From the sequence record NC_073322.1: DNA of 42,145 bases; one strand, 5' to 3'. The notes beneath the pieces were generated by a model. The model was not told the DNA's origin and did no database searches. It saw nothing but the letters and a program-made list of their open reading frames with translations. How positions within the stretch are numbered: the stretch's first letter is position 1; every line of letters starts with the position of its first letter. This DNA comes from Escherichia phage vB_EcoS-Ro145c2YLVW. The translations under genes were made by a program, and so were the position numbers. Positions 512-41,490 of the stretch are shown here, piece after piece.

Positions 512-540
512 TTGCACACTTGAATAGAATAGGCTACTAT
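512..540 (+). promoter_or_regulatory. sigma70-like promoter, conserved class A cassette (TTGCAC-17 nt-TACTAT)
   Basis: -35 TTGCAC, 17-nt spacer, -10 TACTAT; about 30 nt near-identical to cassettes at 10598-10626(-), 20344-20372(-), 41428-41456(+). Confidence 0.5.
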
Positions 541-570
541 TCATTTACACGAACGAGAGGAGAGACAGAG

Positions 571-3367: not shown

Positions 3368-3389
3368 ATCTATTTTCTGTAATGACTAG

Positions 3390-3418
3390 TTGACTATTAC
3401 CTACGACCCTATTATATT
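3390..3418 (+). promoter_or_regulatory. sigma70-like promoter (TTGACT-17 nt-TATATT)
   Basis: Consensus-like hexamers at correct spacing upstream of small-ORF operon; spacer shares CTATTATA core with class B promoters. Confidence 0.45.
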
Positions 3419-5432: not shown

Positions 5433-5459
5433 ACATCCCGCCTAATCCCCTTATATAAT
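5431..5459 (+). promoter_or_regulatory. sigma70-like promoter (TTACAT-17 nt-TATAAT) for packaging/head operon
   Basis: Near-consensus hexamers directly after terminator and upstream of terminase small subunit. Confidence 0.5.
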
Positions 5460-10321: not shown

Positions 10322-10348
10322 AAGGCCCCATTATGGGGCCTTAGTTTT
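10322..10348. terminator. bidirectional hairpin terminator
   Basis: AAGGCCCCA-TTA-TGGGGCCTT stem-loop followed by AGTTTT; sits between convergent genes. Confidence 0.6.
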
Positions 10349-10571
10349 AAACTTCCACGTCTATCACCAAATCATCAGGCATGGTTATGACTATTTTATC
10401 GTTTTCATAGAACGGGCTAAGAGGCTCATTTTCAGGCTGCAAACGTAAAGTTAGCTTTTTATCACCAAAATAATCTATGTAACGAACCCAGTACCACTCG
10501 TCGAATACCTGTACCTTTTCTCCGGGGCGTACATCTCTAGCCTTCTTTTGATTCGTAAATCTAATCGGCAT
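10347..10571 (-). CDS. hypothetical protein (74 aa), antisense moron
   Basis: ATG with AGGAGG SD; driven by class A promoter at 10598-10626; ends at the bidirectional terminator. Confidence 0.55.
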   Translation of the reverse strand: MPIRFTNQKKARDVRPGEKVQVFDEWYWVRYIDYFGDKKLTLRLQPENEPLSPFYENDKIVITMPDDLVIDVEV

Positions 10572-10597
10572 AAATACCTCCTGTTTAAGTTAACTGA

Positions 10598-10626
10598 ATA
10601 GTACCCTACTATATTGGGGTGTGCAA
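10598..10626 (-). promoter_or_regulatory. sigma70-like promoter, class A cassette
   Basis: Minus strand TTGCAC-17 nt-TACTAT; near-identical to cassettes at 512, 20344, 41428. Confidence 0.5.
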
Positions 10627-10692
10627 ACTATTTGTTTATGTATTCCAGTTATTCCGCTCAATTGTAAATGTTGGAATAAACTATTCGAATAG

Positions 10693-10721
10693 TTGACTTT
10701 TCACTGAAAATGTGCTAAGCT
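10693..10721 (+). promoter_or_regulatory. promoter with extended -10 (TTGACT-17 nt-TGcTAAGCT)
   Basis: -35 TTGACT 10693-10698, TG motif then TAAGCT 10716-10721; preceded by GGAATA-type repeats. Confidence 0.4.
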
Positions 10722-10728
10722 CCACCTG

Positions 10729-10929
10729 AGCTTGTGAAGTATGAACAAGCGACCGCGGCGCGGGCAGGTAACGGAGCGGGACGTAAGTCCTGAGTGTAGT
10801 TACGCTGACGCGTTCGGAAGGGCCATACTCTATTGCTTGTGTAAAAAGTAACGGGTTTACTGAGATTACGCCGTTTCTATGTTTAAATGATAAGGCCTAG
10901 CGCCCCGCTTTATGGCGGGGCTTTACTTA
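10729..10929 (+). ncRNA. candidate small RNA or structured leader upstream of spanins
   Basis: About 200 nt between a promoter and a GC-rich hairpin (GCCCCGC-TTTATG-GCGGGGC plus T-rich tail); no ORF over 10 codons; internal hairpin GCTTGT-N9-ACAAGC. Confidence 0.3.
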
Positions 10930-13277: not shown

Positions 13278-13293
13278 GGTTAAGATATAATCG

Positions 13294-17709: not shown

Positions 17710-18204
17710 CTATTTACCGTGGTTCTCGTGGAACCCCAAATCTCTTTCAGCAACTCTCCTCGCGGCAACTGCATCTAGTATCGTCTTAAAGCACCCGATA
17801 TGTGTTTTTACGTTATTGTTGAATATCTGCGCGTACCACAACCTTTCTTTCGCGTTCCAGTAGACTCCGGTTACTCCTGATTTATTATTACGCTGTTTTG
17901 ACATATTTTTATGGTTTTCCGCATTGGACTTTTTAGCTAAGTTAAGCGGTCTATTGTTTATTCGGTCATGGTCTAGATGGTCTATTTGATCTGACGAGGT
18001 TAGCTTATTGTTAGGATTGTTTAAGTCCCAAGCTATACGGTGCGCCGCATGCCATTTACCCCGGAAAAATATCCTTCTATATCCGTCTCGCTGGACGGTA
18101 CCTGCTTCCTCTCCAGCCTTAGCCCTCCCGGACCGGGTTACTCTGTTAAATATCCTTCCTGAAATTAAGTCGTATATGAAAAATTCATTCCAATCCATAA
18201 TCAT
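17710..18204 (-). CDS. HNH homing endonuclease with AP2-type DNA-binding domain
   Basis: HNH-type motifs (YRRIFFRGKWHAAHRIAW, IDHLDHDRINN) and C-terminal GVTGVYW...W segment. Confidence 0.8.
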   Translation of the reverse strand: MIMDWNEFFIYDLISGRIFNRVTRSGRAKAGEEAGTVQRDGYRRIFFRGKWHAAHRIAWDLNNPNNKLTSSDQIDHLDHDRINNRPLNLAKKSNAENHKNMSKQRNNKSGVTGVYWNAKERLWYAQIFNNNVKTHIGCFKTILDAVAARRVAERDLGFHENHGK

Positions 18205-18217
18205 CTCCTATTGTGAT

Positions 18218-18237
18218 AAGGCCCCGAAAGGGGCCTT
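18218..18237. repeat. second copy of AAGGCCCCGAAAGGGGCCTT hairpin
   Basis: 20/20 nt identical to 17689-17708; followed by T run on plus strand. Confidence 0.6.
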
Positions 18238-18241
18238 TTTC

Positions 18242-18472
18242 TTACTCATCAATATTACTCCTGTACTCCCGTAACTTCTCCAGACTCTCAATTGCTTCCG
18301 CTAAGTCGGTTCCTGTGTCCTTGTGCCCCCGCAAGCCCATACACAATAGCTTCTTCAATGCGTGCTGTAACGCCGGGTCGCGGATGTCGAAGGCACGTAG
18401 CACGTCGTAAACGTCTACTGTCATAGTGCTGCCGTGAGTGTTTGTCATTGTGCGGTTGTATTTTGAAGTCAT
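18242..18472 (-). CDS. hypothetical protein (76 aa)
   Basis: Track ORF between the two HNH genes. Confidence 0.5.
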   Translation of the reverse strand: MTSKYNRTMTNTHGSTMTVDVYDVLRAFDIRDPALQHALKKLLCMGLRGHKDTGTDLAEAIESLEKLREYRSNIDE

Positions 18473-18485
18473 AAATCAATCTCCC

Positions 18486-18956
18486 CTACTCATGGTTTTC
18501 ATGAAAACCGTATTTACTCTCGGCGGCTTTACGCGCGGCAACCGCTACATCAAAATCGTCGTAAAGCCCTAAATGCACTTGTTTGTAGTTAACTTTTATA
18601 AACGCGCGCCACTTACCCGCGGCTTTGTGGAAACTTACACCTGTAGCCCCGGATTTATTTATCTTTCTCATAGTTTTATTTTTACTGTCCCCTGTATTGT
18701 CGGTGGCGCGTAGATTTTCTATTCTATTGTCTAGCCTGTTATGGTTTATGTGGTCTATTTGAGTTTTCCTGTCTAAGTCGCATTTATTATAAAGACACCA
18801 TGCTATGCGGTGGACATACACTGTTTTACCACCCATACCGCAGCACAGATAGCCTCTTACACCAACCGTACCAACCTCAGCACCAGTAGATATCCTGGTA
18901 ACCTGCCCCGTCTCAGGGCAGTATTTAAATTGTTTTGAAACATCAAGATACTTCAT
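18486..18956 (-). CDS. HNH homing endonuclease with AP2-type domain (paralog)
   Basis: VYVHRIAW, IDHINHNRLDN and GATGVSF...W motifs; paralogous to 17710..18204. Confidence 0.8.
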   Translation of the reverse strand: MKYLDVSKQFKYCPETGQVTRISTGAEVGTVGVRGYLCCGMGGKTVYVHRIAWCLYNKCDLDRKTQIDHINHNRLDNRIENLRATDNTGDSKNKTMRKINKSGATGVSFHKAAGKWRAFIKVNYKQVHLGLYDDFDVAVAARKAAESKYGFHENHE

Positions 18957-20083
18957 CTTAGCATCTCCGGTGAGATTGAAAGCCTACCTACTTCCCCGAA
19001 CTCTGAACTATAGGTTATGACATTAGCGGACCTCTTAGACATCCACCCGCCGCGAGAAGCATATGCATCTTTCGCCGCGAGAGTGCGATGTTGTTCCACT
19101 ACCATATTCCTACTTTCTACAATCTTTTGATGGTGGAGATGCCCGACATGTGCGTAACTGTACTCGCTTTCGCCAAATGCTTTTCTGAACTTAGCTATCA
19201 TAATGGGTTCGACCACCTCAAACCGGCATTTATGCCCGTGTGTAAAGAACAGTGTCGTTTTACCGTGTTGCACCATCTTGTAAACATCCGGCGACGTATC
19301 GACGAACACACGCGGCTCATTGTCGTACAGCGTACTGAACATCTCAGCCAACCAAATCATTCCGCTTTCGTCGTGGTTCCCTTGCACGATAAGCAAGCGA
19401 ACATTTTTATGCTTAACCAGCGCCATACCAACAACACGGCGTACCATACGAATCATGTAGCGGACTAGTTTCTGGTAGCGCGTGTCCGCATCAAGAACAT
19501 GACCGCTCGCTGGCGTAACGGCATCCAGACTATCGAAGTGTGCGAAGTCCCCGAGCAGATTAATGACTCCTGTTCCTGCATCTGGCGCTTTCTGGAATGC
19601 CGCATCGAACCATCGGGAGAACAGGTCTTCAGCAATCTTCATATCCCAGTCGTCGCCGCTCTCGTCGGCCCAGGCCAGCATGCCGAGATGGAAATCAGAT
19701 ACCGTGTAAAGATTGAGTAGTTTGTCGTCACGTTTGGCTCGAGTCGCTTTAACAGGCGCAACTGGGGTAATCTCTGACTTCATGCCTTCAACCACGGCTT
19801 TCATCAACTCAACCTGACGTTCGGCATCGGTGTCGGTCTTAACCCATTGCAACTTAGTGTTGCCGAACTCGTCTACCAGTGACGACGTTCCTTTAATCTT
19901 GTAGCCGTCTGGCACAAGGTGACTAACATCACGACCATGACCTACGCCTTTCTTCGCCAGCTTCGCTTTACGGATACGAATAACGCGGTCTGAGATGCCG
20001 TATTTACGGGCAATGTCGATATTCTTCATCCCGACGTTCAATTCTTCCTGTAACTGTTCGTCGGTTATTTTCTTCTGGGCCAT
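18953..20083 (-). CDS. calcineurin-like metallophosphoesterase with N-terminal HTH domain
   Basis: Ordered motifs DFH, GDFAHFD, GNHDE, THGHK, GHLHH match the metallophosphoesterase signature; N-terminal 110 aa has an HTH-like segment. Confidence 0.75.
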   Translation of the reverse strand: MAQKKITDEQLQEELNVGMKNIDIARKYGISDRVIRIRKAKLAKKGVGHGRDVSHLVPDGYKIKGTSSLVDEFGNTKLQWVKTDTDAERQVELMKAVVEGMKSEITPVAPVKATRAKRDDKLLNLYTVSDFHLGMLAWADESGDDWDMKIAEDLFSRWFDAAFQKAPDAGTGVINLLGDFAHFDSLDAVTPASGHVLDADTRYQKLVRYMIRMVRRVVGMALVKHKNVRLLIVQGNHDESGMIWLAEMFSTLYDNEPRVFVDTSPDVYKMVQHGKTTLFFTHGHKCRFEVVEPIMIAKFRKAFGESEYSYAHVGHLHHQKIVESRNMVVEQHRTLAAKDAYASRGGWMSKRSANVITYSSEFGEVGRLSISPEMLR

Positions 20084-20121
20084 GCTTACTTCCTCGTGTT
20101 TAGGATTTGTCCTATACTAGC

Positions 20122-20313
20122 TCACTTCTCGTTAACATTCGAGTTGCACGCCCAGATTAAAATAAATACCCACGGCAGCAGAACCCAACCAAGAAACAGG
20201 TTAGCCATGAATATCGCCAACTTCGCTTTATGGTTACGGAAATATGCAACCAGGAAAGGCGCGAAATAAGCGAGCAGTGCAAACAGAATTAAGGAAACTG
20301 GTAAACTTGACAT
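20122..20313 (-). CDS. small membrane protein (63 aa, two predicted TM helices)
   Basis: Track ORF trimmed to ATG 20313 with AAGGGG SD; own class A promoter. Confidence 0.5.
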   Translation of the reverse strand: MSSLPVSLILFALLAYFAPFLVAYFRNHKAKLAIFMANLFLGWVLLPWVFILIWACNSNVNEK

Positions 20314-20343
20314 TTTAAACCCCTTCATTGTTGGTGTAAGTGA

Positions 20344-20372
20344 ATAGTACCCTATTATATTGGGGTGTGCAA
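20344..20372 (-). promoter_or_regulatory. sigma70-like promoter, class A cassette
   Basis: Minus strand TTGCAC-17 nt-TACTAT; 30/32 identical to cassette at 10598-10626. Confidence 0.5.
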
Positions 20373-24900: not shown

Positions 24901-25217
24901 TATTACACTACACCCGTAACGAAGACGGTACTTTCGACCGCAAACGGTACAACGTACCGCCGATGGAATACGTCGTTGCTAACATCCCTGACGGGGTGCC
25001 GGTACGTATTTACCGGGGCGAGATTGGCGAGGATACGGAAGTAACGGAAGATTTCGAAGCGCTGAAAGAAGACGACGTATTCCATATTATCGAAGGTGCT
25101 GGTGGCGGTGGCGGTGTTCTCGGAAAACTGCTTGACCCATTGGGTGTGCTTAAGTTTATCACTAAACTGATTTCCCCGTCGCAGACAACGCCTAAAACTA
25201 GTGTAGCTAACCAGTAA
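24891..25217 (+). CDS. tail assembly protein (lambda I-like position)
   Basis: Small protein with poly-Gly linker; C-terminal 17 codons repeated at N-terminus of next gene. Confidence 0.5.
   Translation: MALILHYTRNEDGTFDRKRYNVPPMEYVVANIPDGVPVRIYRGEIGEDTEVTEDFEALKEDDVFHIIEGAGGGGGVLGKLLDPLGVLKFITKLISPSQTTPKTSVANQ
25164..25214 (+). repeat. 51-bp direct repeat, copy 1
   Basis: AAACTGATTTCCCCGTCGCAGACAACGCCTAAAACTAGTGTAGCTAACCAG; 49/51 identical to 25278-25328. Confidence 0.8.
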
Positions 25218-25259
25218 TCCGGAGGGGGTTGTGTAGGGAAAGAGCGTAAACCTTGGGGG

Positions 25260-32120: not shown

Positions 32121-32405
32121 TTAACTATAATAGTTCACTATTAGGTCGTCAACCTCTTCTTTTGTTCCTACTACAAAAACATTTGCGCCACGTTTACGAA
32201 GCCGTTTGTGCTCCCGCAACTGATGGTCCTCCGGTTCCGTGTTTTCATCCTTCTTCACCTCTACAAACCATATCACTCCTCCTGGAAGGGCGACTAACAG
32301 GTCAGGCGCTCCGTTTCTACCCTCGTACGACAGCTTACGAACGAGGCCGCCAATAGCCTCGAATCGGTCTTTTGCGTATTTCTGTATTTTGCCTTCCGGG
32401 GTCAT
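32121..32405 (-). CDS. VRR-NUC domain nuclease
   Basis: PDLLVALPGGVIWFVEVKKD matches PD-(D/E)xK VRR-NUC core; start set to ATG 32405. Confidence 0.6.
   Translation of the reverse strand: MTPEGKIQKYAKDRFEAIGGLVRKLSYEGRNGAPDLLVALPGGVIWFVEVKKDENTEPEDHQLREHKRLRKRGANVFVVGTKEEVDDLIVNYYS
32124..32152 (-). promoter_or_regulatory. sigma70-like promoter, class B (TTGACG-17 nt-TATAGT)
   Basis: Spacer contains AATAGT...CTATTATAGTT core shared with promoters at 35700 and 37970. Confidence 0.45.
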
Positions 32406-32554
32406 TAGCGCAGAACCCAAGTAAGGAAAGCCCCTCCTAGAACGGCAATACCGACAAACTTAAAGAACAGACCGTAACAGAACATCGCAGCTATTCCCGC
32501 GCCGGATAACAGTGCGAGCATGGTTACTGTCGCCCAAAATACAAACATTGTCAT
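32405..32554 (-). CDS. small membrane peptide (49 aa)
   Basis: Hydrophobic ORF coupled by TAATG overlap to VRR-NUC gene; two further tiny ORFs (Zn-ribbon about 32551-32640, membrane about 32637-32768) chain upstream. Confidence 0.3.
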   Translation of the reverse strand: MTMFVFWATVTMLALLSGAGIAAMFCYGLFFKFVGIAVLGGAFLTWVLR

Positions 32555-32780
32555 AATACGCACCCCTCACGTTTCGTATGCGCAATGCCACAGCGCGGAC
32601 AGATTCGACAGTCTTCTTCATAGAACCAGTAAATTTTCATTCCAGCACCCACAGATAAATTGCGATTAACATACACAATACGGCAACCATCATTCCGTAT
32701 TGACCTTCGTGACAGTAAACCCCGGCGGCGAATCCCGCCAGCGCCGTAACAATCAGTTTACTTAGCATTAGAACCACCTC

Positions 32781-34958
32781 TCACTTAGCGTACCGGTACA
32801 TTTCGCTGCCTTCTGCTACAAGAGGGAATCCCTCAGCCCATTCAGGTAATTCGCACATCAATCGTTCGAGTTCAGCCACATTGTATTCAGGCGAATCTGG
32901 CGTCTCGCAGATAATTTCATCGTGTACATGAAGTACAATCGGGTAGCCGTTTGCTTCAACGTTAAGTAGCGCATTAGCCAGCAAGTCACGGCACAGTGCC
33001 TGGGTACAGTTTTCCACCAGTTTCCCGGAGTACGTGTACTGGAAGCCCCACTGACGAGTTAACTGGTTTTCACCTTGGTACTTGATGCGCACGTTAGTAG
33101 AAACTTTCCCGTCTTCGTCCGTCTCTTTCGATACACTTAAACCTACGCCAGGGTAGGACATTACGCGGCCTGACGGCAACGTCATGCGCAACCACCAACC
33201 AGCTACCTTGTTGCCGTTGTTATCTGTTTCTACGTTGCGTGAAAACTTAACGCCACGAGGACCAGCGGTGAACTCTTTCCCTGGATTACGTATTGCCGCC
33301 ATAGCTGCGTCTTCGATATCACGCCAGAAAGCTACAGTCTCAGGGTGCGACTCGCGCCACATGCGCTTGATAGCGTCACATGTACGCCAGACTTTCTTAT
33401 CCAGAATATATGATGGTCGGTCATCTTTTTCACCAGGACGCGGTGGCCGCTTGGCTTCCTGAATACGCGCCCACTCGTACCCACGTGCGGTAGCGGCCCA
33501 GATGTGGTCAGGGAAAGTACCGTCCATTGTTTTAGCCATATCAACCAGGTCAAGGCCGAGGTTCTTGGCGAACTGAACGAAAGCCCCTACGCCGCCAGCG
33601 TAGCCGAGTCCCAACTCGCAAGCTTTGCCTATCTGGCGAAGGTCTTTACGTTCTTTCTTAATGTAATCCGGTTCCAGGCCAAACATCTTGCCCGCCGTTA
33701 CGCAATAAATATCCAGCCCGGCCCGGAAAGTATCGAGCGCGGCTTCTTCGCCCGCCAGCCATGCCAGCCCGCGACCTTCAACGTTAGAGTAATCTGCAAC
33801 AACAAACTTGTGCCCTGCTTCCGGGATAATGCAGCTGCGCACCGTAGATGCCGTTAGCTTGGCTACATCAAACCGACGATGCGCACGTCCTTTCAGCAAC
33901 GCAGAAATCCCTTTATCCAGCTCATCGTCATGATAGTACCCGCGGGCCAGGTTCTGTGGCTGGAAGCCTTTACCGGCGAATCGTAGCGTACGTTTAGCCC
34001 CGCCGTACTGGATGCAACCGCGGCGGCGGTCGTCAGAAGAACGACCCAGCAATAACGGTGTGTATTTCGTTGACGCGGTGGACGCCGCTCCGAGGCGCAT
34101 TTCGACAATATCACGGGCATCGTCGGGTAAATCCTCGTCAGCCAGCAGGTCAAACAACGTTGCTTTTTGCGCGTTATGAATGCGGTTCGCAGGGGCCAGT
34201 TCCTGCAATGCCGGTAGAAAGTCTTTTCCGGTTAATGAACAGCCGAATTTACGTTGAGATTCCTCCTGCAACTCCCCCTTATGCCGTGTTATGGCTTCAA
34301 TAGCGGCTTCTGCCAGCGCAATATCAACCTTGAACCCGCGGTCGTTGATTAACTGGTCCAGTTCCAGTACGCGGTCCTCGAACTCAGAGTTGCCCCACGA
34401 CGGCATTTTTTGAAACACTTCACGCATCGAAGTGATATCACTAATAGCGTACTTGATGAATAACGCCCACTCCTCCGGGTGCGTCTCAGACGTATAGCGG
34501 CGTATTTTGTAATTCTTCGGGGTCGGCTTGGTGAATCTCTTTATTAACGCCTTACCGCGTTTGTCCTTGGCGTTCTCTGCAGATACTTCCAGCACTTCAC
34601 ACAAAACAGCCAATTTCCCCGGCAGCGCGTGGCGAAAAGCACAGGTCATTGTATCTATAACGCTGCTTACAGGTATGTCATAGCCCCAGCAGTTGCGGAT
34701 AACTAAGCGGTCAAACATATTGAAGTTATGACCTACAATCTTAATATCCCCTCTCATTGCCTTACGCAGGCCAACTTTCAGGTCGCGCGGCATATCGCTG
34801 CCGTCTGTGCAGTCCCAGCAACGCACCTCGCCGTCGTCGAACGCGTAGGTGCATATCAGAATTTCTGTAGATGGGTGTTCGGCGTAGGCATAACTGCCGA
34901 CAACCGTTATGTCTAATTCACAAAAAGTTTCTGTATCAAGATAAAGTAATTCGTTCAT
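32781..34958 (-). CDS. DNA polymerase, family A, with 3'-5' exonuclease domain
   Basis: Exo I LYLDTETF; pol motif A VVADYSNVEGR, motif B-like RQIGKACELGLGYAGG, motif C VHDEI. Confidence 0.9.
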   Translation of the reverse strand: MNELLYLDTETFCELDITVVGSYAYAEHPSTEILICTYAFDDGEVRCWDCTDGSDMPRDLKVGLRKAMRGDIKIVGHNFNMFDRLVIRNCWGYDIPVSSVIDTMTCAFRHALPGKLAVLCEVLEVSAENAKDKRGKALIKRFTKPTPKNYKIRRYTSETHPEEWALFIKYAISDITSMREVFQKMPSWGNSEFEDRVLELDQLINDRGFKVDIALAEAAIEAITRHKGELQEESQRKFGCSLTGKDFLPALQELAPANRIHNAQKATLFDLLADEDLPDDARDIVEMRLGAASTASTKYTPLLLGRSSDDRRRGCIQYGGAKRTLRFAGKGFQPQNLARGYYHDDELDKGISALLKGRAHRRFDVAKLTASTVRSCIIPEAGHKFVVADYSNVEGRGLAWLAGEEAALDTFRAGLDIYCVTAGKMFGLEPDYIKKERKDLRQIGKACELGLGYAGGVGAFVQFAKNLGLDLVDMAKTMDGTFPDHIWAATARGYEWARIQEAKRPPRPGEKDDRPSYILDKKVWRTCDAIKRMWRESHPETVAFWRDIEDAAMAAIRNPGKEFTAGPRGVKFSRNVETDNNGNKVAGWWLRMTLPSGRVMSYPGVGLSVSKETDEDGKVSTNVRIKYQGENQLTRQWGFQYTYSGKLVENCTQALCRDLLANALLNVEANGYPIVLHVHDEIICETPDSPEYNVAELERLMCELPEWAEGFPLVAEGSEMYRYAK

Positions 34959-34974
34959 TATTTCGACCCTTTGT

Positions 34975-34997
34975 AAAAAGGCCCAATAAAGGGCCTT
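34975..34997 (-). terminator. intra-operon terminator/attenuator between SSB and polymerase
   Basis: AAGGCCC-TTTATT-GGGCCTT hairpin followed by TTTT on minus strand. Confidence 0.55.
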
Positions 34998-35016
34998 AAT
35001 TAAACTGATTCAAGTA

Positions 35017-35646
35017 TTAACCACGGCGACGACGTTCTCGGCGCGGTGCTTCATCTTCTTCGTCGTCTTCAAGGTCATTGACGCTCGCAGCAACTTTAGA
35101 GCCTCCAAACGCTTTACCTTCGCCGACGTATTTAATCGCCAGCAGGTTAACGCCGAGGACTTTGTATTTCTGGCTGAACCAGATTTCAACGCTTACGTTA
35201 GCAACGCAGCCGCTGTAAACCTGTTCGCCTTCAATCTGTTCACCGTCTACGTTGAAGTCCTGCTCTACCTGAGTCTCACCTTTTTTAGAGGTTACAATCA
35301 GCGGTTGTTTCTGTGCCTTCGCTTTGAAGTAGAAACCTTCCGGGAAGTCTTCAAAAGGATTATCACGCTCGGCAATGTCTTTAATCGCGCATTTATCCAT
35401 GTGCTTGCCTTCGCCGTAGTTTGACTTCATCCACTTCTCGGCAGCGGCGGCACCAAGTGCTTCTTCTACAACCGCATAAACGGTGTCGTACATTTCGTCG
35501 ATTTGCGCATGGTCAGACGGCAGGATGATAGTCGCGCTGTACTGGCCTTTAGTGATTGAGCCATCATCGTTTTCACGGTCTTTTTCGCGTTCGAATACGT
35601 TAACCCATGCAGTGTTTACTTTACGCAGATTTAATTTCATTCCCAT
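35017..35646 (-). CDS. single-stranded DNA-binding protein (putative)
   Basis: 209 aa, acidic stretch DLEDDEEDE near C-terminus, within replication module. Confidence 0.55.
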   Translation of the reverse strand: MGMKLNLRKVNTAWVNVFEREKDRENDDGSITKGQYSATIILPSDHAQIDEMYDTVYAVVEEALGAAAAEKWMKSNYGEGKHMDKCAIKDIAERDNPFEDFPEGFYFKAKAQKQPLIVTSKKGETQVEQDFNVDGEQIEGEQVYSGCVANVSVEIWFSQKYKVLGVNLLAIKYVGEGKAFGGSKVAASVNDLEDDEEDEAPRRERRRRG

Positions 35647-35699
35647 TTGATTTCTCGCTTTTAAGTTTACTCCGGGAAGCTGCCCGGCCAGTGATTAGA

Positions 35700-35729
35700 A
35701 CTATAATAGCTAACTATTCAGGTGTCAAC
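35700..35729 (-). promoter_or_regulatory. sigma70-like promoter, class B (TTGACA-18 nt-TATAGT)
   Basis: Consensus -35; conserved AATAGT...CTATTATAGTT spacer core. Confidence 0.5.
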
Positions 35730-35732
35730 ACT

Positions 35733-35888
35733 TTATTTAAACGTTTCTTTTGTCATACGGATAATTTTCGCCGATTCGTCCCTAATTATCATGCTGAATA
35801 CCTGGTATATGACTTTGCTCCTGCCTAGCTTCGCTCCGTTTCGATGCTGTTGTATGTAGCTTTTATGCAATTCTTGAATCGTACTCAT
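35733..35888 (-). CDS. hypothetical small protein (51 aa)
   Basis: ATG overlaps exonuclease stop (ATGA); track ORF 35733..35918 trimmed. Confidence 0.35.
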   Translation of the reverse strand: MSTIQELHKSYIQQHRNGAKLGRSKVIYQVFSMIIRDESAKIIRMTKETFK

Positions 35889-37147
35889 TCCAAATCCCCC
35901 TCTGTTACTTGATTCCACTCAGGCCGTTTATCGTCTGCCGTTGCAACGCATGGTGCTCCTGGCTTACGAGTAATGAAGTCTTTCAGTTCTTCTTCCGGCA
36001 CAACTTTAACAGCTTCGGTTGGCGTCATGAGCACTTGCTTCATTAGCGCGATGCCGTATTTGCTTGCCACTTTCTCCGCGTCTTTCCACGCGCGATTACC
36101 CGGACGACCTTCTACCAGCTTGTAACCCGGCACTTTCTTGCCAGAATGCAAAGCGGCAGCCATAGCTTTCTCAACCTTGTCGATGTGCTGGCGCAACAAC
36201 GGCAACTTCTCATACTCGGCGACGAGTTGCTCAGGTGTCAGTTCCAGTGCAAAATCGTCCTCCAGTTCTTCCGCCAGCACCGCGTTAACGGTTTTTGTAC
36301 GCGCTGCGCACTGTTCTGAGAACCGACACCACTGGCAACCATCGACCGACGGCTTGAAGTCCGACGCTTTCAGGTTCTTCTTTCCACGGAAATAGGCATC
36401 AAGGGCCCGCAGCGCTCGTTTCCGTGCGAACTTAGCGAACAGTTCCAGACCTTCAACCGAGATGTCCCACTCCGACGCGCCACCAGCATACGGCTGGAAG
36501 ATGACCAGGCGAACTACTGTGATGTTATAACGTCTCTTGAGTCGGCGATAAACACCGAGAGCGTAAAGCATAAGCTGCTTGTTTTCTTTCGCTTCAACAC
36601 GATGCCGTCCTGTTTTCAGGTCGCCTATAATGAGCATGTGCCCATCGGTGTTAGACAGCTCCTGAACGGCAACGAGGTCAGCAGTTCCGAACGTCTCAAC
36701 GCCTTCATAGCCCGGATGCAATACCTCAGTAAGATTGACGCGCATTTCCAGCTTGGCGTAAGTGGCAACGTCGATAATCGCTTTGCAGTAGTCTGTGTAC
36801 TTGCGCACCTGTTCAATCATGTCAGCCGTAATCAGTACCGCACCTTTCATCGGGCTGATTAGTGCCTTAATCTGACCTTTACCCTCATCCAGCACGTAAG
36901 CACCGACTTCACGCTCCAACGGCAGCGCAGTGCCTTTGATGTACTGGTTTAGATGTACCTCAGCTATTGTGTGCATAGCTGTGCCTAATACCGCAGATTT
37001 ACCTGACGTGTTAGGGATATCTTTTTCACAGGCCAGCGATGCGGCGCAGCTTAACCACTTTTTGGCACCTGACGGCGACAGTAAGGCGTGCACATCGTTA
37101 TTGCCGCCGCGTTCTTTTAAAATCATTCCGTACCTCCCACTGGTCAA
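35885..37147 (-). CDS. PD-(D/E)xK exonuclease, RecB/Cas4-like with Cys cluster
   Basis: GDLKTG...EAKENKQLMLYAL nuclease core and C-terminal CQWCRFSEQC cysteines. Confidence 0.7.
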   Translation of the reverse strand: MTSGRYGMILKERGGNNDVHALLSPSGAKKWLSCAASLACEKDIPNTSGKSAVLGTAMHTIAEVHLNQYIKGTALPLEREVGAYVLDEGKGQIKALISPMKGAVLITADMIEQVRKYTDYCKAIIDVATYAKLEMRVNLTEVLHPGYEGVETFGTADLVAVQELSNTDGHMLIIGDLKTGRHRVEAKENKQLMLYALGVYRRLKRRYNITVVRLVIFQPYAGGASEWDISVEGLELFAKFARKRALRALDAYFRGKKNLKASDFKPSVDGCQWCRFSEQCAARTKTVNAVLAEELEDDFALELTPEQLVAEYEKLPLLRQHIDKVEKAMAAALHSGKKVPGYKLVEGRPGNRAWKDAEKVASKYGIALMKQVLMTPTEAVKVVPEEELKDFITRKPGAPCVATADDKRPEWNQVTEGDLE

Positions 37148-37394
37148 TTAAATGCCGCGTCTGGTGCTGGCAGTGCATAGCCCACCCATACATCGACTCG
37201 AAGACATAAAAGTCAGGTTTGGCGAAGGTCGTTCGCTTAATCTGCGACACGCGGCGACCTATATCTTTAGGGCGCGGTACTTTGCCTAAGTACGCCATCT
37301 CTTCCATCCGGTGCGCACCTGACGGCGCACGCAACAGCCACAACGCCTCTGTGTTATCCCGCCTGTCGATGGCGCGGTAGAGTTGGTAAATCAT
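37098..37394 (-). CDS. hypothetical protein
   Basis: Track ORF overlapping exonuclease start. Confidence 0.4.
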   Translation of the reverse strand: MIYQLYRAIDRRDNTEALWLLRAPSGAHRMEEMAYLGKVPRPKDIGRRVSQIKRTTFAKPDFYVFESMYGWAMHCQHQTRHLIDQWEVRNDFKRTRRQ

Positions 37395-37437
37395 AATTCC
37401 GAACCTCAGTTAAAGCGGCCCGAAGGCCGCAGGATAG

Positions 37438-37938
37438 TTATTCTTCTTCGAAATATTTGTTCTTGATTGCCGTCAGGCGTTCCAGATATTCAGCCAAGTC
37501 TTCGTCTTTAATCGCCGCAATCTTCATCTTCTTACCTGTGAACTCTTCCAGCAGTTCATCGGAATCGTCGCACGCGGCATCGCTCGGACCTTCATTAATT
37601 GCATCGTCGATGGCCTGAATCTGGTCACGCAGAGACTGGTAATCGACTTCTTCCTTCCCTTCTTCCGGCTCTGGCTCTGGCTGCTCTACTTTAGCTTTAC
37701 GCGGCTTGCGTTTTGGCTTCTCTTCTTCTGCTGATTTAGTGTCGACGATGTCTTCACCTTCGACCGGGATTTCTTTTGTTGCTTCTTTTGCGCACTCGTC
37801 TACCGCTTCTTTGGTATACATTACCGTCTCTACTTCTAGTGGCGCGGCAACCCGAACAACTTGTTTCGCGCTGTTCGCAGCAATCAGTTCATGTGCAACT
37901 ACGAAACGTTCCAGTAATTTTAAGAATTGGTCTAACAT
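37438..37938 (-). CDS. highly acidic protein, first gene downstream of class B promoter
   Basis: Asp/Glu-rich (EPEPEEGKEE, DDSDELLEE); GAGAGGAGAGAAACAA leader before ATG. Confidence 0.5.
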   Translation of the reverse strand: MLDQFLKLLERFVVAHELIAANSAKQVVRVAAPLEVETVMYTKEAVDECAKEATKEIPVEGEDIVDTKSAEEEKPKRKPRKAKVEQPEPEPEEGKEEVDYQSLRDQIQAIDDAINEGPSDAACDDSDELLEEFTGKKMKIAAIKDEDLAEYLERLTAIKNKYFEEE

Positions 37939-37969
37939 TTGTTTCTCTCCTCTCGTTTGGTATGGGCTA

Positions 37970-37999
37970 ACTATAATAGCTGACTATTCATGATGTCAA
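37970..37999 (-). promoter_or_regulatory. sigma70-like promoter, class B (TTGACA-18 nt-TATAGT)
   Basis: Consensus -35, conserved spacer core; divergent from XRE gene. Confidence 0.5.
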
Positions 38000-38063
38000 T
38001 GGGCTTTTCTAAAATAATTAATATGGTACTATTCACATATCAACTGACTAAGGAGTGATTAAC

Positions 38064-38279
38064 ATGCAACCATCTGAACTAGGCATCCGTGTAGAACAGC
38101 GCCGTAAAGAACTCGGCATCTCCCAGCGCCGTCTGGCTGTCCTGACGGGAGTTTCTCAGGGCGCAATTAATCAGCTTGCACTCGGAGTAACTCAGGACGT
38201 CCGCCCGGCAACGCTGTTTAAACTGGCGGAAGTGCTGGAAGTAGACGCCAAGTGGCTGGCGTTAGGTGAAGGGGCTTAA
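38064..38279 (+). CDS. XRE-family HTH transcriptional regulator
   Basis: ELGISQRRLAVLTGVSQGAINQL helix-turn-helix; AAGGAG SD before ATG 38064. Confidence 0.7.
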   Translation: MQPSELGIRVEQRRKELGISQRRLAVLTGVSQGAINQLALGVTQDVRPATLFKLAEVLEVDAKWLALGEGA

Positions 38280-38296
38280 TGCCCCTTTCTTTTTAC
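38269..38296 (+). terminator. rho-independent terminator
   Basis: AAGGGGC-TTAAT-GCCCCTT hairpin followed by TCTTTTT. Confidence 0.55.
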
Positions 38297-40537
38297 CTAT
38301 TCCAAATCTTCCTCTGTAACTTTCAGCATCTCATTCGGTTCGTATATTGTCTTCGGCCTTAATCTGTCACCTATCTTTTCGGGTATCCGGTATGTGCCGG
38401 GGGCAACTTCACCGTTAACATCACACCCGAGCATCAACTCACCGTCTTTCAGCATCTTCTCAAGATGGTGGTTGGTGATGGCGTGGTCCCCCGAGTTCGC
38501 CACTATCTGCCGTTGGGTAAAACCTCGTCCGGTGTCGTCGGACTGTTGCAGGTCTTCCAGCGCGGCGAGTATTGATTCCTTACGCCCTTCATCCTTCCCG
38601 CGTTTTACAGCATTCTTTACGTTTTCTTTACCTTCCTTTGTCAGCCCTTCTTCCCGCTCTTTCTCCTCGTCAGTTTTGAATGGCTCGAAGCCCCACGGCA
38701 TCAACACAAGCGCCTTGTGTGGTTCCGGCAGGTCGAGGTTTACGATTGTGCCGTATTCCTCCGTGCTGCCCAGGAACTCCACCGCGCGGTACTCTTTCGG
38801 CGGTGGCGCTTCACGGAACTGTACCGACTCCAGCACCATACCAACCGTCTTCTGTTGAGGCCCGTGCTTAAATTTAGAGTGGTATACGTTTATCTGACGG
38901 TCGGTTGCGCGTTCAATTGTCAGCTCCACGTCGACACCCGCATACAGCGCCCCACTGCCACGGGCTTTCTTTCCACCCTTCGGGGTATGGTGAACAACGC
39001 CCACCGCAGCTTTGGTTGCGTCGCGTACTTCTTTCAGGATGGCAATGACTTTACCCATGCCGATTGCCGTCGATGAACTGTTCTCGTCGAACTTATCAAT
39101 CGTCAGGGCCAGGGTCTGGTTGAGGGTATCGAACGCGACCATCCCAATTGGCTCGTCACCCGCGGTTTCGCGCATCAACTTAATCAGGCTTTTCAGTTTT
39201 CCGACTTCACCCATGTCGATGACATGTACATAATCTTTACCTTCCTCGCCATATTTAGCCGCGAGTGCGTCGATGCGTGTGCGTGTAGCAGCACCACCCT
39301 CACCGTCGATATAGAAATGGTGGCAACGCTGGGTATCTGCCCCTGCAAACCGGTATCCGGCGGCGCTAAGGTACATCATCCCCAGCGTATAGAACGATTT
39401 GTACGTGCCAGATTCCCCGACGATATCCCAGATACAATCCGACGGCATGTACCCTTCAACGACGAAATCAGCCTTTACCGGTTCCGGTAACTCGTCCTCC
39501 TCTGGATCCTCGTCGTCTTCCAGGTCGTCCAGGCTGCATGAAACATATTCACGTGCACCCCATCCGATGGCCTCTGCAACTTCACTGAACGGCAGCCCGG
39601 TCGCATCGCACGCGTATTTCCACACATCTTTCGGTGGCCTGCCTTCTGTCGCCCCAATGTCGGTGTCGTGAATCATGGTTACGTTCGGCGCTTCGTACCC
39701 TTCACGTGGGAAACACAGCAGGAAGTCGTCCGGGCGTGGCGTCGGGTCGCTGTAGTTTTCTGCGTGTTCTGGTGTGGCAGGCATCTTAAGGCCGCGAGGC
39801 GTCATGATGCCGCCGTACTCAAACGCCAGCGATTCAAACGCATCTGTAAACGCGGTGCGCAGTTCTTCCGGAATCTGGTAGTCAGATGCGCTGCTTACCT
39901 CGTAATCCGGGATGCCTTCCAGTAACTCGTCAGGGTCAATCAGGTCATTGCGGCGCGCCCAGATAACGGTAGAGCCGACCGGCGGCAGGTACATAGGCTG
40001 AGACAGAGTGAACCCGCTGCGGTCGGCACCCATGCCTTTGAAGAAGTGCTCCAGCAATCCGTGACGAACGCGGATGATGTCACCACCTTCAACCGGACGC
40101 CCCAGCGGCATGACGACGCGAAAGCGCGGTGACTCATCGGTATGTGATGCCGTAGTGTAAAGGCACATAGCCTGACGGCTGCGCTTAACCAGGCACACCA
40201 CTTCCTGATACTCTTCCGGCGTTGCGCTGTCGAAGTCCAGGTACGCCAGCGACGATTTACTTACAGACGCGTCACAGCGATAAAAGAAGCCTTTGCGCGC
40301 TTGCTTAAAGTCACCGGTTTCCGGGTCTTTTACGGTGCTGTGCGTAGCGTCGCACGCGGCAGTAACATAGCCAGGTGCTGTCTTCGGGTTAATTCCGTCG
40401 CGAACGGAATCGAGTGGACGGATTAACTCTTTCAGGTCGTCCAGTGTTGCCGTGTGTGTTGTTCTGACGTTTATATCCTTTTTCTCCGCCCGCGCGTTGC
40501 GACGAGACCACGAGTAGGATAAGATTGCATCGGACAT
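38297..40537 (-). CDS. DNA primase/helicase (primase-like N-terminal region plus RecA-like P-loop ATPase)
   Basis: Walker A GESGTYKS in central domain; 746 aa; canonical position in replication module. Confidence 0.65.
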   Translation of the reverse strand: MSDAILSYSWSRRNARAEKKDINVRTTHTATLDDLKELIRPLDSVRDGINPKTAPGYVTAACDATHSTVKDPETGDFKQARKGFFYRCDASVSKSSLAYLDFDSATPEEYQEVVCLVKRSRQAMCLYTTASHTDESPRFRVVMPLGRPVEGGDIIRVRHGLLEHFFKGMGADRSGFTLSQPMYLPPVGSTVIWARRNDLIDPDELLEGIPDYEVSSASDYQIPEELRTAFTDAFESLAFEYGGIMTPRGLKMPATPEHAENYSDPTPRPDDFLLCFPREGYEAPNVTMIHDTDIGATEGRPPKDVWKYACDATGLPFSEVAEAIGWGAREYVSCSLDDLEDDEDPEEDELPEPVKADFVVEGYMPSDCIWDIVGESGTYKSFYTLGMMYLSAAGYRFAGADTQRCHHFYIDGEGGAATRTRIDALAAKYGEEGKDYVHVIDMGEVGKLKSLIKLMRETAGDEPIGMVAFDTLNQTLALTIDKFDENSSSTAIGMGKVIAILKEVRDATKAAVGVVHHTPKGGKKARGSGALYAGVDVELTIERATDRQINVYHSKFKHGPQQKTVGMVLESVQFREAPPPKEYRAVEFLGSTEEYGTIVNLDLPEPHKALVLMPWGFEPFKTDEEKEREEGLTKEGKENVKNAVKRGKDEGRKESILAALEDLQQSDDTGRGFTQRQIVANSGDHAITNHHLEKMLKDGELMLGCDVNGEVAPGTYRIPEKIGDRLRPKTIYEPNEMLKVTEEDLE

Positions 40538-40595
40538 GTTGTGTTTCCTTCAGCAAGTAATTTGGCCTCGGCGTTCACCGCGTCGGGGCTTTCTT

Positions 40596-40829
40596 TTATT
40601 CCAGGTCTTCTAAAGTAGCGGTCATTCCGCGAACTTCTGCAACAGCGCTATATTTCCCGCCAACGTTTTTTACGACACCGGATTTAACCAGCACGCGTAA
40701 CGACGCTTCAATAATGGCGGAACTATAGTACTTAAAATAACTGCGGCGCAAGTCAAGAACACTACACGACCCTTTTTTACGTGTAAGCGAAACTACCGCC
40801 GTAAATACTCGTGACTGGAACTCTGTCAT
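40596..40829 (-). CDS. hypothetical protein ending in TLEDLE
   Basis: Track ORF; shares C-terminal DLE tail with primase and exonuclease. Confidence 0.45.
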   Translation of the reverse strand: MTEFQSRVFTAVVSLTRKKGSCSVLDLRRSYFKYYSSAIIEASLRVLVKSGVVKNVGGKYSAVAEVRGMTATLEDLE

Positions 40830-40996
40830 TTCACATTCTCCTTAATCCACGCTTCCACTTTATCCGGGTCAAACGTACCTGGCTGACGGCGGCCCATAAT
40901 GCGGATACAGCAATCAGGGAACTTCCCACTCTTTAACCAGTTATTCAGCGTTCGACGAGTAACCCCGATACGCTCGGCTACCTCATTCTGCGTCAT
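40826..40996 (-). CDS. small HTH DNA-binding protein
   Basis: NEVAERIGVTRRTLNNWLK helix-turn-helix; start set to ATG 40996 with GAGGG SD (track gives TTG 41029). Confidence 0.55.
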   Translation of the reverse strand: MTQNEVAERIGVTRRTLNNWLKSGKFPDCCIRIMGRRQPGTFDPDKVEAWIKENVK

Positions 40997-41028: not shown

Positions 41029-41057
41029 AGTATACATTGCGAATAATGGGAAATCAA
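41029..41057 (-). promoter_or_regulatory. sigma70-like promoter (TTGATT-17 nt-TATACT) for replication operon
   Basis: Hexamers at correct spacing about 30 nt upstream of ATG 40996. Confidence 0.4.
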
Positions 41058-41427: not shown

Positions 41428-41456
41428 TTGCATACCCCAATATAATAGGCTACTAT
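41428..41456 (+). promoter_or_regulatory. sigma70-like promoter, class A cassette (TTGCAT-17 nt-TACTAT)
   Basis: Near-identical to cassettes at 512, 10598, 20344. Confidence 0.5.
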
Positions 41457-41490
41457 TCACTTATCGAAACGAGACAGAGGGGTGAGGGTT

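What the first reader, a model, noticed from the sequence alone, without database searches (positions are those of the whole stretch)
32124..37999. Second promoter family with conserved spacer (class B) driving the replication module
Three minus-strand promoters (32124-32152, 35700-35729, 37970-37999) share TTGAC(A/G)-N-(G/T)AATAGT-N-A(A/G)CTAT-TATAGT-T. The plus-strand promoter at 3390-3418 shares the CTATTATA core. The spacer contains the reverse complement of the ACTATTCA element of class A cassettes, so the two families may be read by a common factor in different geometry, or represent temporal classes.
Basis: seen in the sequence. Interest (0 to 1): 0.4.

Follow-up and report, generated by a model that had tools for sequence, protein, structure and literature searches.

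The report
Shared repressor-type operator inside phage promoters
Three strong host-type promoters in front of this virulent E. coli phage's DNA-replication genes each contain the same 14-base inverted repeat, which also sits in at least seven other promoters of the genome and is most likely the binding site of a small phage-encoded Cro-like repressor; this is a useful regulatory map but an ordinary kind of mechanism.

Summary
The window is Escherichia phage vB_EcoS-Ro145clw (Kagunavirus). The three minus-strand sites are the best sigma-70 promoter matches in the replication region (TTGACR, 17-18 nt, TATAGT).

Their shared spacer is an inverted repeat, AATAG-N4-CTATT. Ten sites in the window match it with at most one arm mismatch, against about 1.1 in shuffles. 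All lie on core promoter elements, in three registers:
- over the -10 hexamer (class A and the gp36 promoter);
- between -35 and -10 (class B, this finding);
- over the -35 hexamer (two plus-strand promoters, including 3390).

In about 48 related phages, located by flanking anchors and not by the motif, the arms are almost invariant. The four central bases and the neighbouring spacer vary freely. That is the pattern expected of a dimeric-protein operator.

The best candidate reader is gp36, a 71-aa protein resembling 434 Cro. Its gene is divergent from class B promoter 3, and a second, weaker operator lies over its own promoter. A 56-aa excisionase-like HTH protein, gp39, is the main rival. 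Binding, repression and timing are all inferred.

The motif itself was already published as a PHIRE "phage promoter" consensus and attributed to a phage RNA polymerase. No such gene is annotated here. I rate it a new member of a known kind, of modest interest.

The parts
32124..32152 (-). Class B promoter 1 (TTGACG-17-TATAGT). It lies inside the last 11 codons of gene 00027 and drives gp26, gp25, the helicase, gp23 and gp22.
   Evidence: The reading frame ...GTT GAC GAC CTA ATA GTG AAC TAT TAT AGT TAA was read directly.
32129..32142 (.). Operator-like inverted repeat in promoter 1. It reads AATAG-TGAA-CTATT on the minus strand, with its centre near -18.5.
35700..35728 (-). Class B promoter 2 (TTGACA-17-TATAGT). 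It drives the Enc34-type ssDNA-binding protein (35017-35646) and DNA polymerase (32781-34958).
35705..35718 (.). Operator-like inverted repeat in promoter 2 (AATAG-TTAG-CTATT on the minus strand).
37970..37999 (-). Class B promoter 3 (TTGACA-18-TATAGT). It drives gp35 (37438-37938), gp34 and the PD-(D/E)XK nuclease (35885-37126).
37975..37988 (.). Operator-like inverted repeat in promoter 3 (AATAG-TCAG-CTATT on the minus strand).
38020..38033 (+). Second, imperfect repeat (AATAT-GGTA-CTATT, 9 of 10 arm bases). It lies over the putative gp36 promoter, an extended -10 TGG-TACTAT at 38024-38032 with no recognisable -35.
   Evidence: (conserved in all Kagunavirus loci)
38064..38279 (+). gp36, a 71-aa XRE-family HTH protein resembling 434 Cro. 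It is monocistronic, with a terminator hairpin at 38268-38288. It is the best candidate reader of the repeat.
40826..40996 (-). gp39, a 56-aa HTH_17 (excisionase-like) protein and the rival candidate reader. [quoted passage not shown]
41029..41057 (-). Promoter of the gp39 operon (TTGATT-17-TATACT). It carries no inverted repeat.
512..541 (+). Class A promoter (TTGCAC-17-TACTAT) with the repeat over the -10 hexamer (528-541). It drives gene 00044 and those that follow.
41428..41457 (+). Class A promoter (TTGCAT-17-TACTAT) with the repeat at 41444-41457. It drives genes 00040 and 00041.
10597..10626 (-). Class A promoter on the minus strand. The repeat at 10597-10610 has one arm mismatch. It drives the 74-aa gene at 10347-10571.
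20343..20372 (-). Class A promoter on the minus strand, with the repeat at 20343-20356. It drives the superinfection-immunity, phosphoesterase and HNH gene cluster.
3385..3418 (+). Class C promoter (TTGACT-17-TATATT). The repeat ACTAG-TTGA-CTATT (3385-3398) lies over the -35 hexamer.
   Evidence: The orthologues in K1G and Jersey carry a different single arm mismatch.
10688..10721 (+). Class C promoter (TTGACT-17-TAAGCT). The repeat AATAG-TTGA-CTTTT (10688-10701) lies over the -35 hexamer.

Best explanation
The three class B sites are promoters for the host sigma-70 RNA polymerase. They head three successive transcription units of the replication module.

Between the -35 and -10 hexamers, and overlapping the first base of the -10, each carries a 14-bp operator, AATAG-N4-CTATT. 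The extended form is wKAATAG-N4-CTATTMw.

The same operator lies over the -10 of the class A promoters and of the gp36 promoter. It lies over the -35 of two plus-strand promoters. Together these sites form one regulon.

A phage-encoded dimeric helix-turn-helix protein binds these sites and keeps RNA polymerase off the promoter, so it acts as a repressor. The most likely reader is gp36, a 71-aa protein resembling 434 Cro. Its own promoter carries a weaker copy, which would give negative autoregulation. Differences in operator register and quality would then set how early and how fully each promoter is shut down.

Shown:
- the sequences and their excess over chance;
- the three registers;
- the conservation pattern in relatives;
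- the fold and family of gp36.

Inferred:
- that a protein binds the repeat at all;
- that the protein is gp36 (about 0.5 on its own);
- that the effect is repression;
- any link to timing.
For: 1. The three sites are the best sigma-70 matches in the region, each followed by a ribosome-binding site and start codon.
2. The repeat occurs 10 times in 42 kb with at most one arm mismatch, against 1.1 in shuffles. Every copy lies on a core promoter element.
3. It sits in three registers, with centres near -12.5, -18.5 and -33.5. Contacts with RNA polymerase cannot explain one sequence in three positions. An independent protein site can.
4. Orthologous promoters in about 48 relatives were located by flanking anchors, not by the motif.
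   - Each arm position deviates in 0-2 of 32-42 unique sequences.
   - The four central positions deviate in 0-19 (4-19 at B1 and B2).
   - The spacer bases next to the -35 deviate in 2-17.
   - At promoter 2, the sequence upstream of the -35 is mosaic and unalignable.
5. K1G and Jersey carry the repeat at the orthologues of all three class B sites, the 3390 promoter and several class A sites (K1G also at the 10688 and gp36-promoter sites). The 3390 orthologue in Jersey has its single mismatch in the other arm.
6. Promoter 1 lies in coding sequence. From my own knowledge, the codons it imposes there, CTA and ATA, are rare in E. coli. That suggests selection on the DNA sequence itself.
7. gp36 has the expected properties.
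   - Pfam HTH_3, E = 2e-12.
   - Best solved relatives are 434 Cro (also 71 aa) and 434 repressor, E about 1e-5.
   - The AF2 model has five helices, pLDDT 85, and TM 0.77-0.83 to 2cro.
   - From my own knowledge, 434 operators are also 14 bp with conserved outer arms and four uncontacted central bases.
8. The gp36 gene is divergent from promoter 3. Two copies of the repeat lie in the 125-bp intergenic region, one of them over gp36's own -10.
9. The base before AATAG tracks the gp36 type.
   - It is T at 37 of 37 sites in loci with the Jersey-type recognition helix (SQSLITH).
   - It is G at 120 of 149 sites in loci with the Kagunavirus type (SQGAINQ).
   - The gp39 helix type is shared by both groups.
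Against: - No binding or expression data exist for any of this.
- gp36 is only 48% identical between Kagunavirus and Jerseyvirus, and its recognition helix differs, yet the five-base arms are identical.
- A 43%-identical gp36 homologue exists in a third clade (L051-L058), where the repeat is absent.
- gp39 has exactly the phyletic distribution of the repeat.
- The G/T covariation rests on essentially one phylogenetic split.
- The K1B4 time course puts the gp36 homologue in 'middle' and polymerase and helicase in 'late'. A simple 'early promoters shut off by gp36' model does not predict that. The sampling there is coarse and probably spans several infection cycles.
Confidence: 0.55

Rival explanations
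1. The reader of the repeat is gp39, the 56-aa excisionase-like HTH protein. It is made first, from the only strong early-region promoter that lacks the repeat, and it then acts on all the other promoters as repressor or modulator.
For: - gp39 is present in Kagunavirus and Jerseyvirus at 71-100% identity. It was not found in the two clades that lack the repeat. This is the same distribution as the motif.
- Its putative recognition helix is conserved between the two genera, matching the invariant arms.
- Its promoter lacks the repeat in all relatives examined.
- Its K1B4 homologue is one of only four 'early' genes.
Against: - It is 56 aa, with no evident dimerisation element for a palindromic site.
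- Relatives of this fold usually bind direct repeats or act in excision or packaging. Fold matches are weak, all with E > 0.28.
- Three gp39 helix variants coexist with an unchanged motif. The concerted G-to-T flank change occurs without any gp39 helix change.
- No copy of the repeat lies near its own gene.
Confidence: 0.2
2. There is no dedicated factor. The similarity reflects paralogous promoter and leader cassettes copied around the genome and kept because the sequence makes a strong sigma-70 promoter.
For: - Class A units and promoter 3 also share a leader sequence, AACGAGAGGAG, which suggests common ancestry of whole cassettes.
- The right arm overlaps the -10 hexamer in class B and the left arm does so in class A, so part of the conservation comes from the promoter itself.
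Against: - The left arm in class B (-25 to -21) and the promoter-distal arm in class A are as invariant as the hexamers. Adjacent spacer bases and the four central bases vary freely.
- The same repeat occurs in three registers.
- A concerted flank change has occurred at dispersed sites.
Confidence: 0.1
3. The repeat is a loading site for a Q- or AlpA-type antiterminator. Such sites also lie between -35 and -10.
For: - QBE and ABE elements lie between the -35 and -10 hexamers. ABE spans -25 to -20, where the class B left arm lies.
- Many terminator-like hairpins lie in the operons.
Against: - AlpA and Q proteins need an N-terminal ring that enters the RNA exit channel. In the paper AlpA has eight helices and residues numbered past 140, whereas gp39 has 56 residues and gp36 has 71.
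- ABE is a single 6-mer, not a palindrome.
- The class A and class C registers do not fit a loading-site geometry.
- No consistent -10-like pause element was seen downstream, though this was checked only by eye.
Confidence: 0.04
4. A host transcription factor of E. coli or Salmonella binds the repeat.
For: The arms are identical in phages of two host genera.
Against: - The flank base changes in concert between the E. coli and Salmonella phages, although host orthologues would be nearly identical.
- The motif is clade-specific among related phages.
- I know of no host factor with this consensus. That rests on memory and was not tested.
Confidence: 0.05
5. The sites are promoters for a phage-encoded RNA polymerase. 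This is how the same motif was described for phage fBC-Eco01.
For: The consensus tgAATAGTa-ccTATTat-T was found by PHIRE in seven copies and labelled as phage RNA polymerase promoters (PMC9825357).
Against: - None of the 67 annotated genes encodes an RNA polymerase.
- The motif always sits on canonical sigma-70 hexamers at correct spacing.
- It is palindromic and occurs in both orientations relative to transcription.
Confidence: 0.01

Closest known systems
Phage 434 Cro / cI repressor with the 14-bp OR/OL operators
   Same: - A small XRE-family HTH protein of the same length as 434 Cro (71 aa).
- 434 Cro and 434 repressor are its best solved relatives by sequence; 434 Cro is among the best fold matches, behind HipB.
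- A 14-bp operator with conserved five-base arms and four variable central bases.
- Operators that overlap core promoter elements, including the regulator's own promoter.
   Different: - There is no cI partner, no integrase and no lysogeny switch.
- The operators are not clustered in threes at one control region. They are dispersed over at least 10 promoters.
- The arm sequence is different.
- Binding has not been tested.
PHIRE 'phage promoter' consensus of Kagunavirus fBC-Eco01 (PMC9825357); also seven PHIRE sites in vB_EcoS-Golestan (PMC7203180)
   Same: It is the same motif, tgAATAGTa-ccTATTat-T, in seven copies per genome.
   Different: - That paper attributes it to a phage RNA polymerase.
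- The passages I read do not mention the inverted repeat, the sigma-70 hexamers around it, the three registers or a candidate binding protein.
Lambda Cro turn-down of early promoters; P22 Arc operator between -35 and -10 of Pant (from my own knowledge)
   Same: A small phage repressor made during lytic growth binds inside core promoters to limit early transcription.
   Different: Here the sites are genome-wide in a strictly virulent siphovirus. They include promoters upstream of lysis and morphogenesis genes.
Q-binding element (lambdoid phages) and AlpA-binding element (PMC9371919)
   Same: It is a factor-binding element placed between the -35 and -10 hexamers.
   Different: - QBE and ABE are not palindromes of this type.
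- They work with a downstream pause site and a much larger protein.
- Neither feature is evident here.

Membership tests
Sigma-70 (housekeeping) promoter | A -35 and a -10 hexamer close to TTGACA and TATAAT, separated by 16-18 nt | tested here: met
   11, 11 and 10 of 12 positions match, with spacers of 18, 17 and 17. These are the top three hits in the region.
Sigma-70 (housekeeping) promoter | A mapped transcription start site downstream | not testable with these tools
   No 5'-end data exist. The only support is a ribosome-binding site and start codon about 30-55 nt downstream of each -10 hexamer.
Cro/cI-type (XRE) repressor-operator system | An inverted-repeat operator with conserved arms and a variable centre | tested here: met
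   Each arm position deviates in 0-2 of 32-42 unique orthologues. The central positions deviate in 0-19 (4-19 at B1 and B2).
Cro/cI-type (XRE) repressor-operator system | An XRE-fold HTH protein encoded next to its operators | tested here: met
   - HTH_3, E = 2e-12.
- 434 Cro, E = 8e-6.
- TM 0.77-0.83 to 2cro.
- Two copies of the repeat lie within 125 bp upstream of the gene.
Cro/cI-type (XRE) repressor-operator system | Specific binding of the protein to the operator | not testable with these tools
   This needs a gel-shift or footprinting experiment.
Cro/cI-type (XRE) repressor-operator system | Protein specificity and operator sequence change together across relatives | tested here: inconclusive
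   - The flank base (G or T) follows the gp36 type.
- The five-base arms are unchanged despite a different recognition helix.
- A third clade has a gp36 homologue but no repeat.
Lysogeny switch (cI, Cro and integrase) | A second repressor gene and an integrase | tested here: not met
   None is annotated among the 67 CDS. Published genomes of this group are described as lacking lysogeny genes (PMC7203180, PMC9825357).
Phage-RNA-polymerase promoter | A phage-encoded RNA polymerase gene | tested here: not met
   No such gene is present in the annotation.
Q/AlpA antiterminator loading site | A factor with an RNA-exit-channel ring domain | tested here: not met
   The candidate proteins have 56 and 71 aa and consist of a single HTH domain. 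In the paper AlpA has eight helices and residues numbered past 140.
Q/AlpA antiterminator loading site | A -10-like pause element in the initially transcribed region | not tested
   This was inspected only by eye and nothing consistent was seen.
MerR-type activated promoter | An over-long 19-20 bp spacer with the dyad centred in it | tested here: not met
   The spacers are 17-18 bp. The dyad centres lie near -18.5, -12.5 and -33.5.

The most novel reading that the evidence does not exclude
A strictly virulent siphovirus group that is widely used in phage therapy runs almost its whole transcription programme through one Cro-like protein. Its 14-bp operator is built into nearly every sigma-70 promoter, in three different registers: over the -35, in the spacer, and over the -10. 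Register and operator quality, not different factors, would then encode the order in which promoters are silenced. Only the gp39 operon promoter and a promoter upstream of the terminase genes escape.
Probability: 0.25. Interest if true: 0.55.

Novelty: new member of a known kind. Interest (0 to 1): 0.35.

Why it matters
- Kagunaviruses and Jerseyviruses are common therapy and biocontrol phages, and their gene regulation has not been studied experimentally.
- A defined operator, two named candidate regulators and a list of 10 controlled promoters give a directly testable regulatory map.
- The result corrects a published attribution of this motif to a phage RNA polymerase.
- The promoters could also serve as compact, strong, repressible parts.
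- Conceptually the mechanism (a small phage repressor binding inside core promoters) is well known.

Tried and rejected
- **First motif search.** It found nothing because I set the gap too long. Shorter patterns fixed this.
- **Circular conservation table.** My first table was built from sites selected by the motif itself. I replaced it with orthologues located by flanking anchors.
- **Other repeated elements.** No other repeated palindrome was found in the distant clades. They carry a different, non-palindromic repeated word, TGCAACCAAY, in their promoters. This could not be tied cleanly to either HTH protein.
- **AlpA/Q antitermination analogy.** Considered and rejected on protein size and element type.
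- **MerR-type activation.** Rejected on spacer length.
- **gp39 homologue search.** The large-database search returned only close relatives (77% identity or more). No independent lineage was available to test the pairing of gp39 with the motif.
- **Raoultella phage RP180.** It turned out to be the same as a locus already held and added no diversity.
- **Rfam scan.** No matches in the window.
- **Fuzzy-regex search.** It timed out and was replaced by blastn.
- **Not done.** I did not search host genomes for the motif, because a 14-base pattern would return thousands of chance hits.

Full report
**Identity of the window.** The window is almost identical (99.9%) to Escherichia phage vB_EcoS-Ro145clw, MG852086.2 (Kagunavirus, Guernseyvirinae), rotated relative to the record. 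The record annotates 67 genes and no regulatory features. The region in the finding is the minus-strand replication module.

**Check of the observation.** All three sites exist as described:
- TTGACG-17-TATAGT at 32152..32124;
- TTGACA-17-TATAGT at 35728..35700;
- TTGACA-18-TATAGT at 37999..37970.

They are the three best sigma-70-like matches between 29.5 and 42.1 kb, although the total number of weak promoter-like hits there is no greater than in shuffles. The shared spacer is far beyond chance:
- 7 hits to AATAGTNANCTATTATA with up to 2 mismatches, against 0.05 expected;
- 7 hits to ACTATTCA, against 1.0 expected.

Each site is followed by a Shine-Dalgarno sequence and the start codon of a replication unit:
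- gp35, gp34 and the PD-(D/E)XK nuclease;
- an Enc34-type ssDNA-binding protein and DNA polymerase I;
- gp26 through the helicase.

Promoter 1 lies inside the last 11 codons of the upstream gene, in the frame ...GTT GAC GAC CTA ATA GTG AAC TAT TAT AGT TAA. From my own knowledge, the CTA and ATA codons it imposes there are rare in E. coli.

**What the shared element is.** The conserved spacer is an inverted repeat, AATAG-N4-CTATT.

Read on their transcribed strand, the "class A" cassettes are TTGCAy-ACCCCAAT-ATAATAGGsTACTATTCA. That is a -35 TTGCAC, a 17-nt spacer and a -10 TACTAT, and they contain the same repeat.

In the whole window, 10 sites match the repeat with at most one mismatch in the ten arm positions. 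Shuffles give a mean of 1.1 and a maximum of 4. Every one lies on a core promoter element. I place the -10 hexamer at -12 to -7. The sites then fall into three registers:
- **Class A, centre near -12.5.** The repeat covers the -10 hexamer. Sites: 512-541 (+), 41428-41457 (+), 10597-10626 (-), 20343-20372 (-).
- **Class B, centre near -18.5.** The repeat fills the spacer, and its last base is the first base of the -10 hexamer. These are the three sites of this finding.
- **Class C, centre near -33.5.** The four variable central bases are the TTGA of the -35 hexamer TTGACT.

A tenth copy, AATAT-GGTA-CTATT at 38020-38033, lies in the class A register over a TGG-TACTAT extended -10 element directly upstream of gp36. 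Its single arm mismatch creates the T of the TG motif.

Two plausible promoters carry no repeat: the gp39 operon promoter at 41057..41029 and a promoter at 5430-5459 upstream of the terminase genes.

**Conservation in relatives.** Using the nuclease as query I fetched 74 loci from viral contigs.

Exact AATAG-N4-CTATT sites occur at the orthologous positions in Kagunavirus-like and Jerseyvirus-like loci. There are none in two more distant clades, L051-L058 and L059-L074.

To avoid circularity I re-located the three class B orthologues by flanking anchors and aligned them. Among 32-42 unique sequences per site:
- each arm position deviates in 0-2 sequences;
- the four central positions deviate in 0-19 (4-19 at B1 and B2);
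- the spacer bases between the -35 hexamer and the left arm deviate in 2-17.

At promoter 2 the sequence upstream of the -35 is mosaic, so the sharp conservation boundary there is informative. At promoter 3 the whole intergenic region is conserved, so that site is less informative.

The few exceptions carry a single arm change, such as ACTAG, AATCG or CTACT.

Full genomes of K1G and Jersey carry the repeat at the orthologues of the three class B sites, the 3390 promoter and several class A sites. K1G also has the 10688 and gp36-promoter copies; neither copy is seen in Jersey at one arm mismatch or fewer, and K1G lacks the 10597 class A site together with its gene. At the 3390 orthologue the window has ACTAG...CTATT while Jersey has AATAG...CTAGT. 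The mismatch is in a different arm each time.

Invariant arms, a free centre and three registers fit a site for a dimeric DNA-binding protein. They do not fit contacts made by RNA polymerase.

**Candidate readers.** Pfam scans of 20 small proteins from the early regions found two HTH proteins.

*gp36 (38064-38279, +; 71 aa)*
- It belongs to the XRE family, with HTH_3 at E = 2e-12.
- Its best solved relatives are 434 Cro, also 71 aa, and the 434 repressor.
- A single-sequence AlphaFold2 model has five helices and pLDDT 85. It superposes on 434 Cro with TM 0.77-0.83, and also on HipB, SinR, P22 c2 and restriction-modification controller proteins.
- Its gene is monocistronic, with its own terminator. 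It is divergent from promoter 3, with two copies of the repeat 45 bp apart in the 125-bp intergenic region.
- From my own knowledge, 434 operators are also 14 bp with conserved outer arms and four uncontacted central bases.

*gp39 (40826-40996, -; 56 aa)*
- It is an HTH_17 (excisionase-like) winged helix: PHROG "excisionase and transcriptional regulator", model pLDDT 74, and only weak fold hits.

**Weighing the two candidates.**

For gp36:
- its family, size and the operator geometry;
- its position next to two operators, one over its own promoter;
- the flank base before AATAG follows the gp36 helix type. It is T at 37 of 37 sites in Jersey-type loci. It is G at 120 of 149 sites in Kagunavirus-type loci, and the 29 exceptions are all class B sites (the alignments place them at promoter 1). 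The gp39 helix type I is shared by both groups, and three gp39 helix variants coexist with an unchanged motif.

For gp39:
- it has the same phyletic distribution as the repeat, whereas a 43%-identical gp36 homologue exists in clade L051-L058 without the repeat;
- its helix is conserved between the two genera, as the arms are;
- its promoter never carries the repeat;
- its K1B4 homologue is one of four "early" genes.

I rate gp36 at about 0.5, gp39 at about 0.2, and the remainder goes to no factor, a host factor or another protein.

**Direction of regulation.** All three registers overlap the RNA polymerase contact surface, and the spacers are optimal at 17-18 bp. Repression by occlusion is therefore the natural reading. 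MerR-type activation needs 19-20 bp spacers.

A Q/AlpA-type loading site is unlikely. ABE is a single 6-mer, and in the paper AlpA has eight helices, with residues numbered past 140, including a ring that enters the RNA exit channel.

**Timing.** This could not be tested. The K1B4 time course (PMC12645636) classes the genes as follows:
- the gp39 homologue is "early";
- the gp36 homologue and the primase are "middle";
- the polymerase and the helicase-region genes are "late".

Its 5-120 min sampling is coarse, and I treat it as uninformative for the class A versus class B question.

**Relation to what is known.** The motif has been reported. PHIRE found seven copies in Kagunavirus fBC-Eco01, with consensus tgAATAGTa-ccTATTat-T, and the authors assigned them to a phage-encoded RNA polymerase. 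Seven PHIRE sites were also reported for Golestan. No RNA polymerase gene is annotated here, and the motif sits on sigma-70 hexamers.

The new points are:
- the inverted-repeat nature of the motif;
- the three registers;
- the conservation pattern in relatives;
- the two candidate regulators.

The mechanism is of a well-known kind, a Cro-like repressor acting inside promoters. I therefore rate this a new member of a known kind with modest interest.

Noticed in passing
window 10679-10921 (+): A perfect 16-bp palindrome, AACTATTCGAATAGTT (10679-10694), has the half-sites everted. It abuts the class C promoter at 10693-10721. A leader of about 180 nt and a strong terminator hairpin (10902-10921) follow, before the plus-strand gene at 10946. 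The palindrome, promoter and first part of the leader are conserved in K1G. The layout recalls lambda PR'/tR' and may be a regulated read-through point for late genes. Rfam has no match.
   Followed up: partly
window 35672-35687 (-): A hairpin, CCGGG-CAGCTT-CCCGG, lies at the 5' end of the promoter 2 transcript. It is conserved in Kagunavirus and Jerseyvirus, and a similar hairpin follows the equivalent promoter in the more distant clade L051-L058. It may be an RNA stability or translation element for the ssDNA-binding protein and polymerase operon.
   Followed up: no
loci L051-L074 (for example L059 8782 and 20563; L051 4805 and 11513): More distant relatives lack AATAG-N4-CTATT. Instead they carry a different repeated 10-mer, TGCAACCAAY, in or next to their promoters, singly or as an inverted pair. 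The class A -35 region here (TTGCACACCCCAAT) resembles it.
   Followed up: partly
window 32121-32152 (-): Class B promoter 1 is embedded in the last 11 codons of gene 00027, which K1G annotates as a Holliday junction resolvase. The operator arms impose CTA and ATA codons, which from my own knowledge are rare in E. coli.
   Followed up: partly
window 5407-5459 (+): A terminator hairpin (5407-5426) is followed directly by a promoter-like site without the repeat (TTTACA-18-TATAAT) and by a further conserved hairpin upstream of the terminase genes. The -10 hexamer is conserved in K1G and Jersey. It is a possible late promoter that escapes the operator system.
   Followed up: partly
window about 25215-25255: The window is 114 bp longer than GenBank MG852086.2. 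The difference maps to a short repeated stretch in a tail gene, where record bases 13213-13285 align twice.
   Followed up: no
window 17710-20313 (-): The minus-strand cluster driven by the class A promoter at 20343-20372 sits in the middle of the tail genes. It encodes a superinfection-immunity protein (Imm_superinfect), a phosphoesterase and two HNH endonuclease-domain proteins.
   Followed up: no
window 40537-40596: A hairpin at 40564-40590 lies between gp38 and the primase gene. It could end an early gp39-gp38 transcript. That would fit the K1B4 data, in which the gp39 homologue is 'early' and the primase 'middle'.
   Followed up: no
K1G record NC_027993.1 (L077 about 33400-33640); RP180 MK737937.1 (about 34744-35103): The gp36 gene is not annotated in these public records. 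In K1G its start and promoter region are conserved, and the RP180-equivalent locus L031 encodes a 96%-identical gp36.
   Followed up: no
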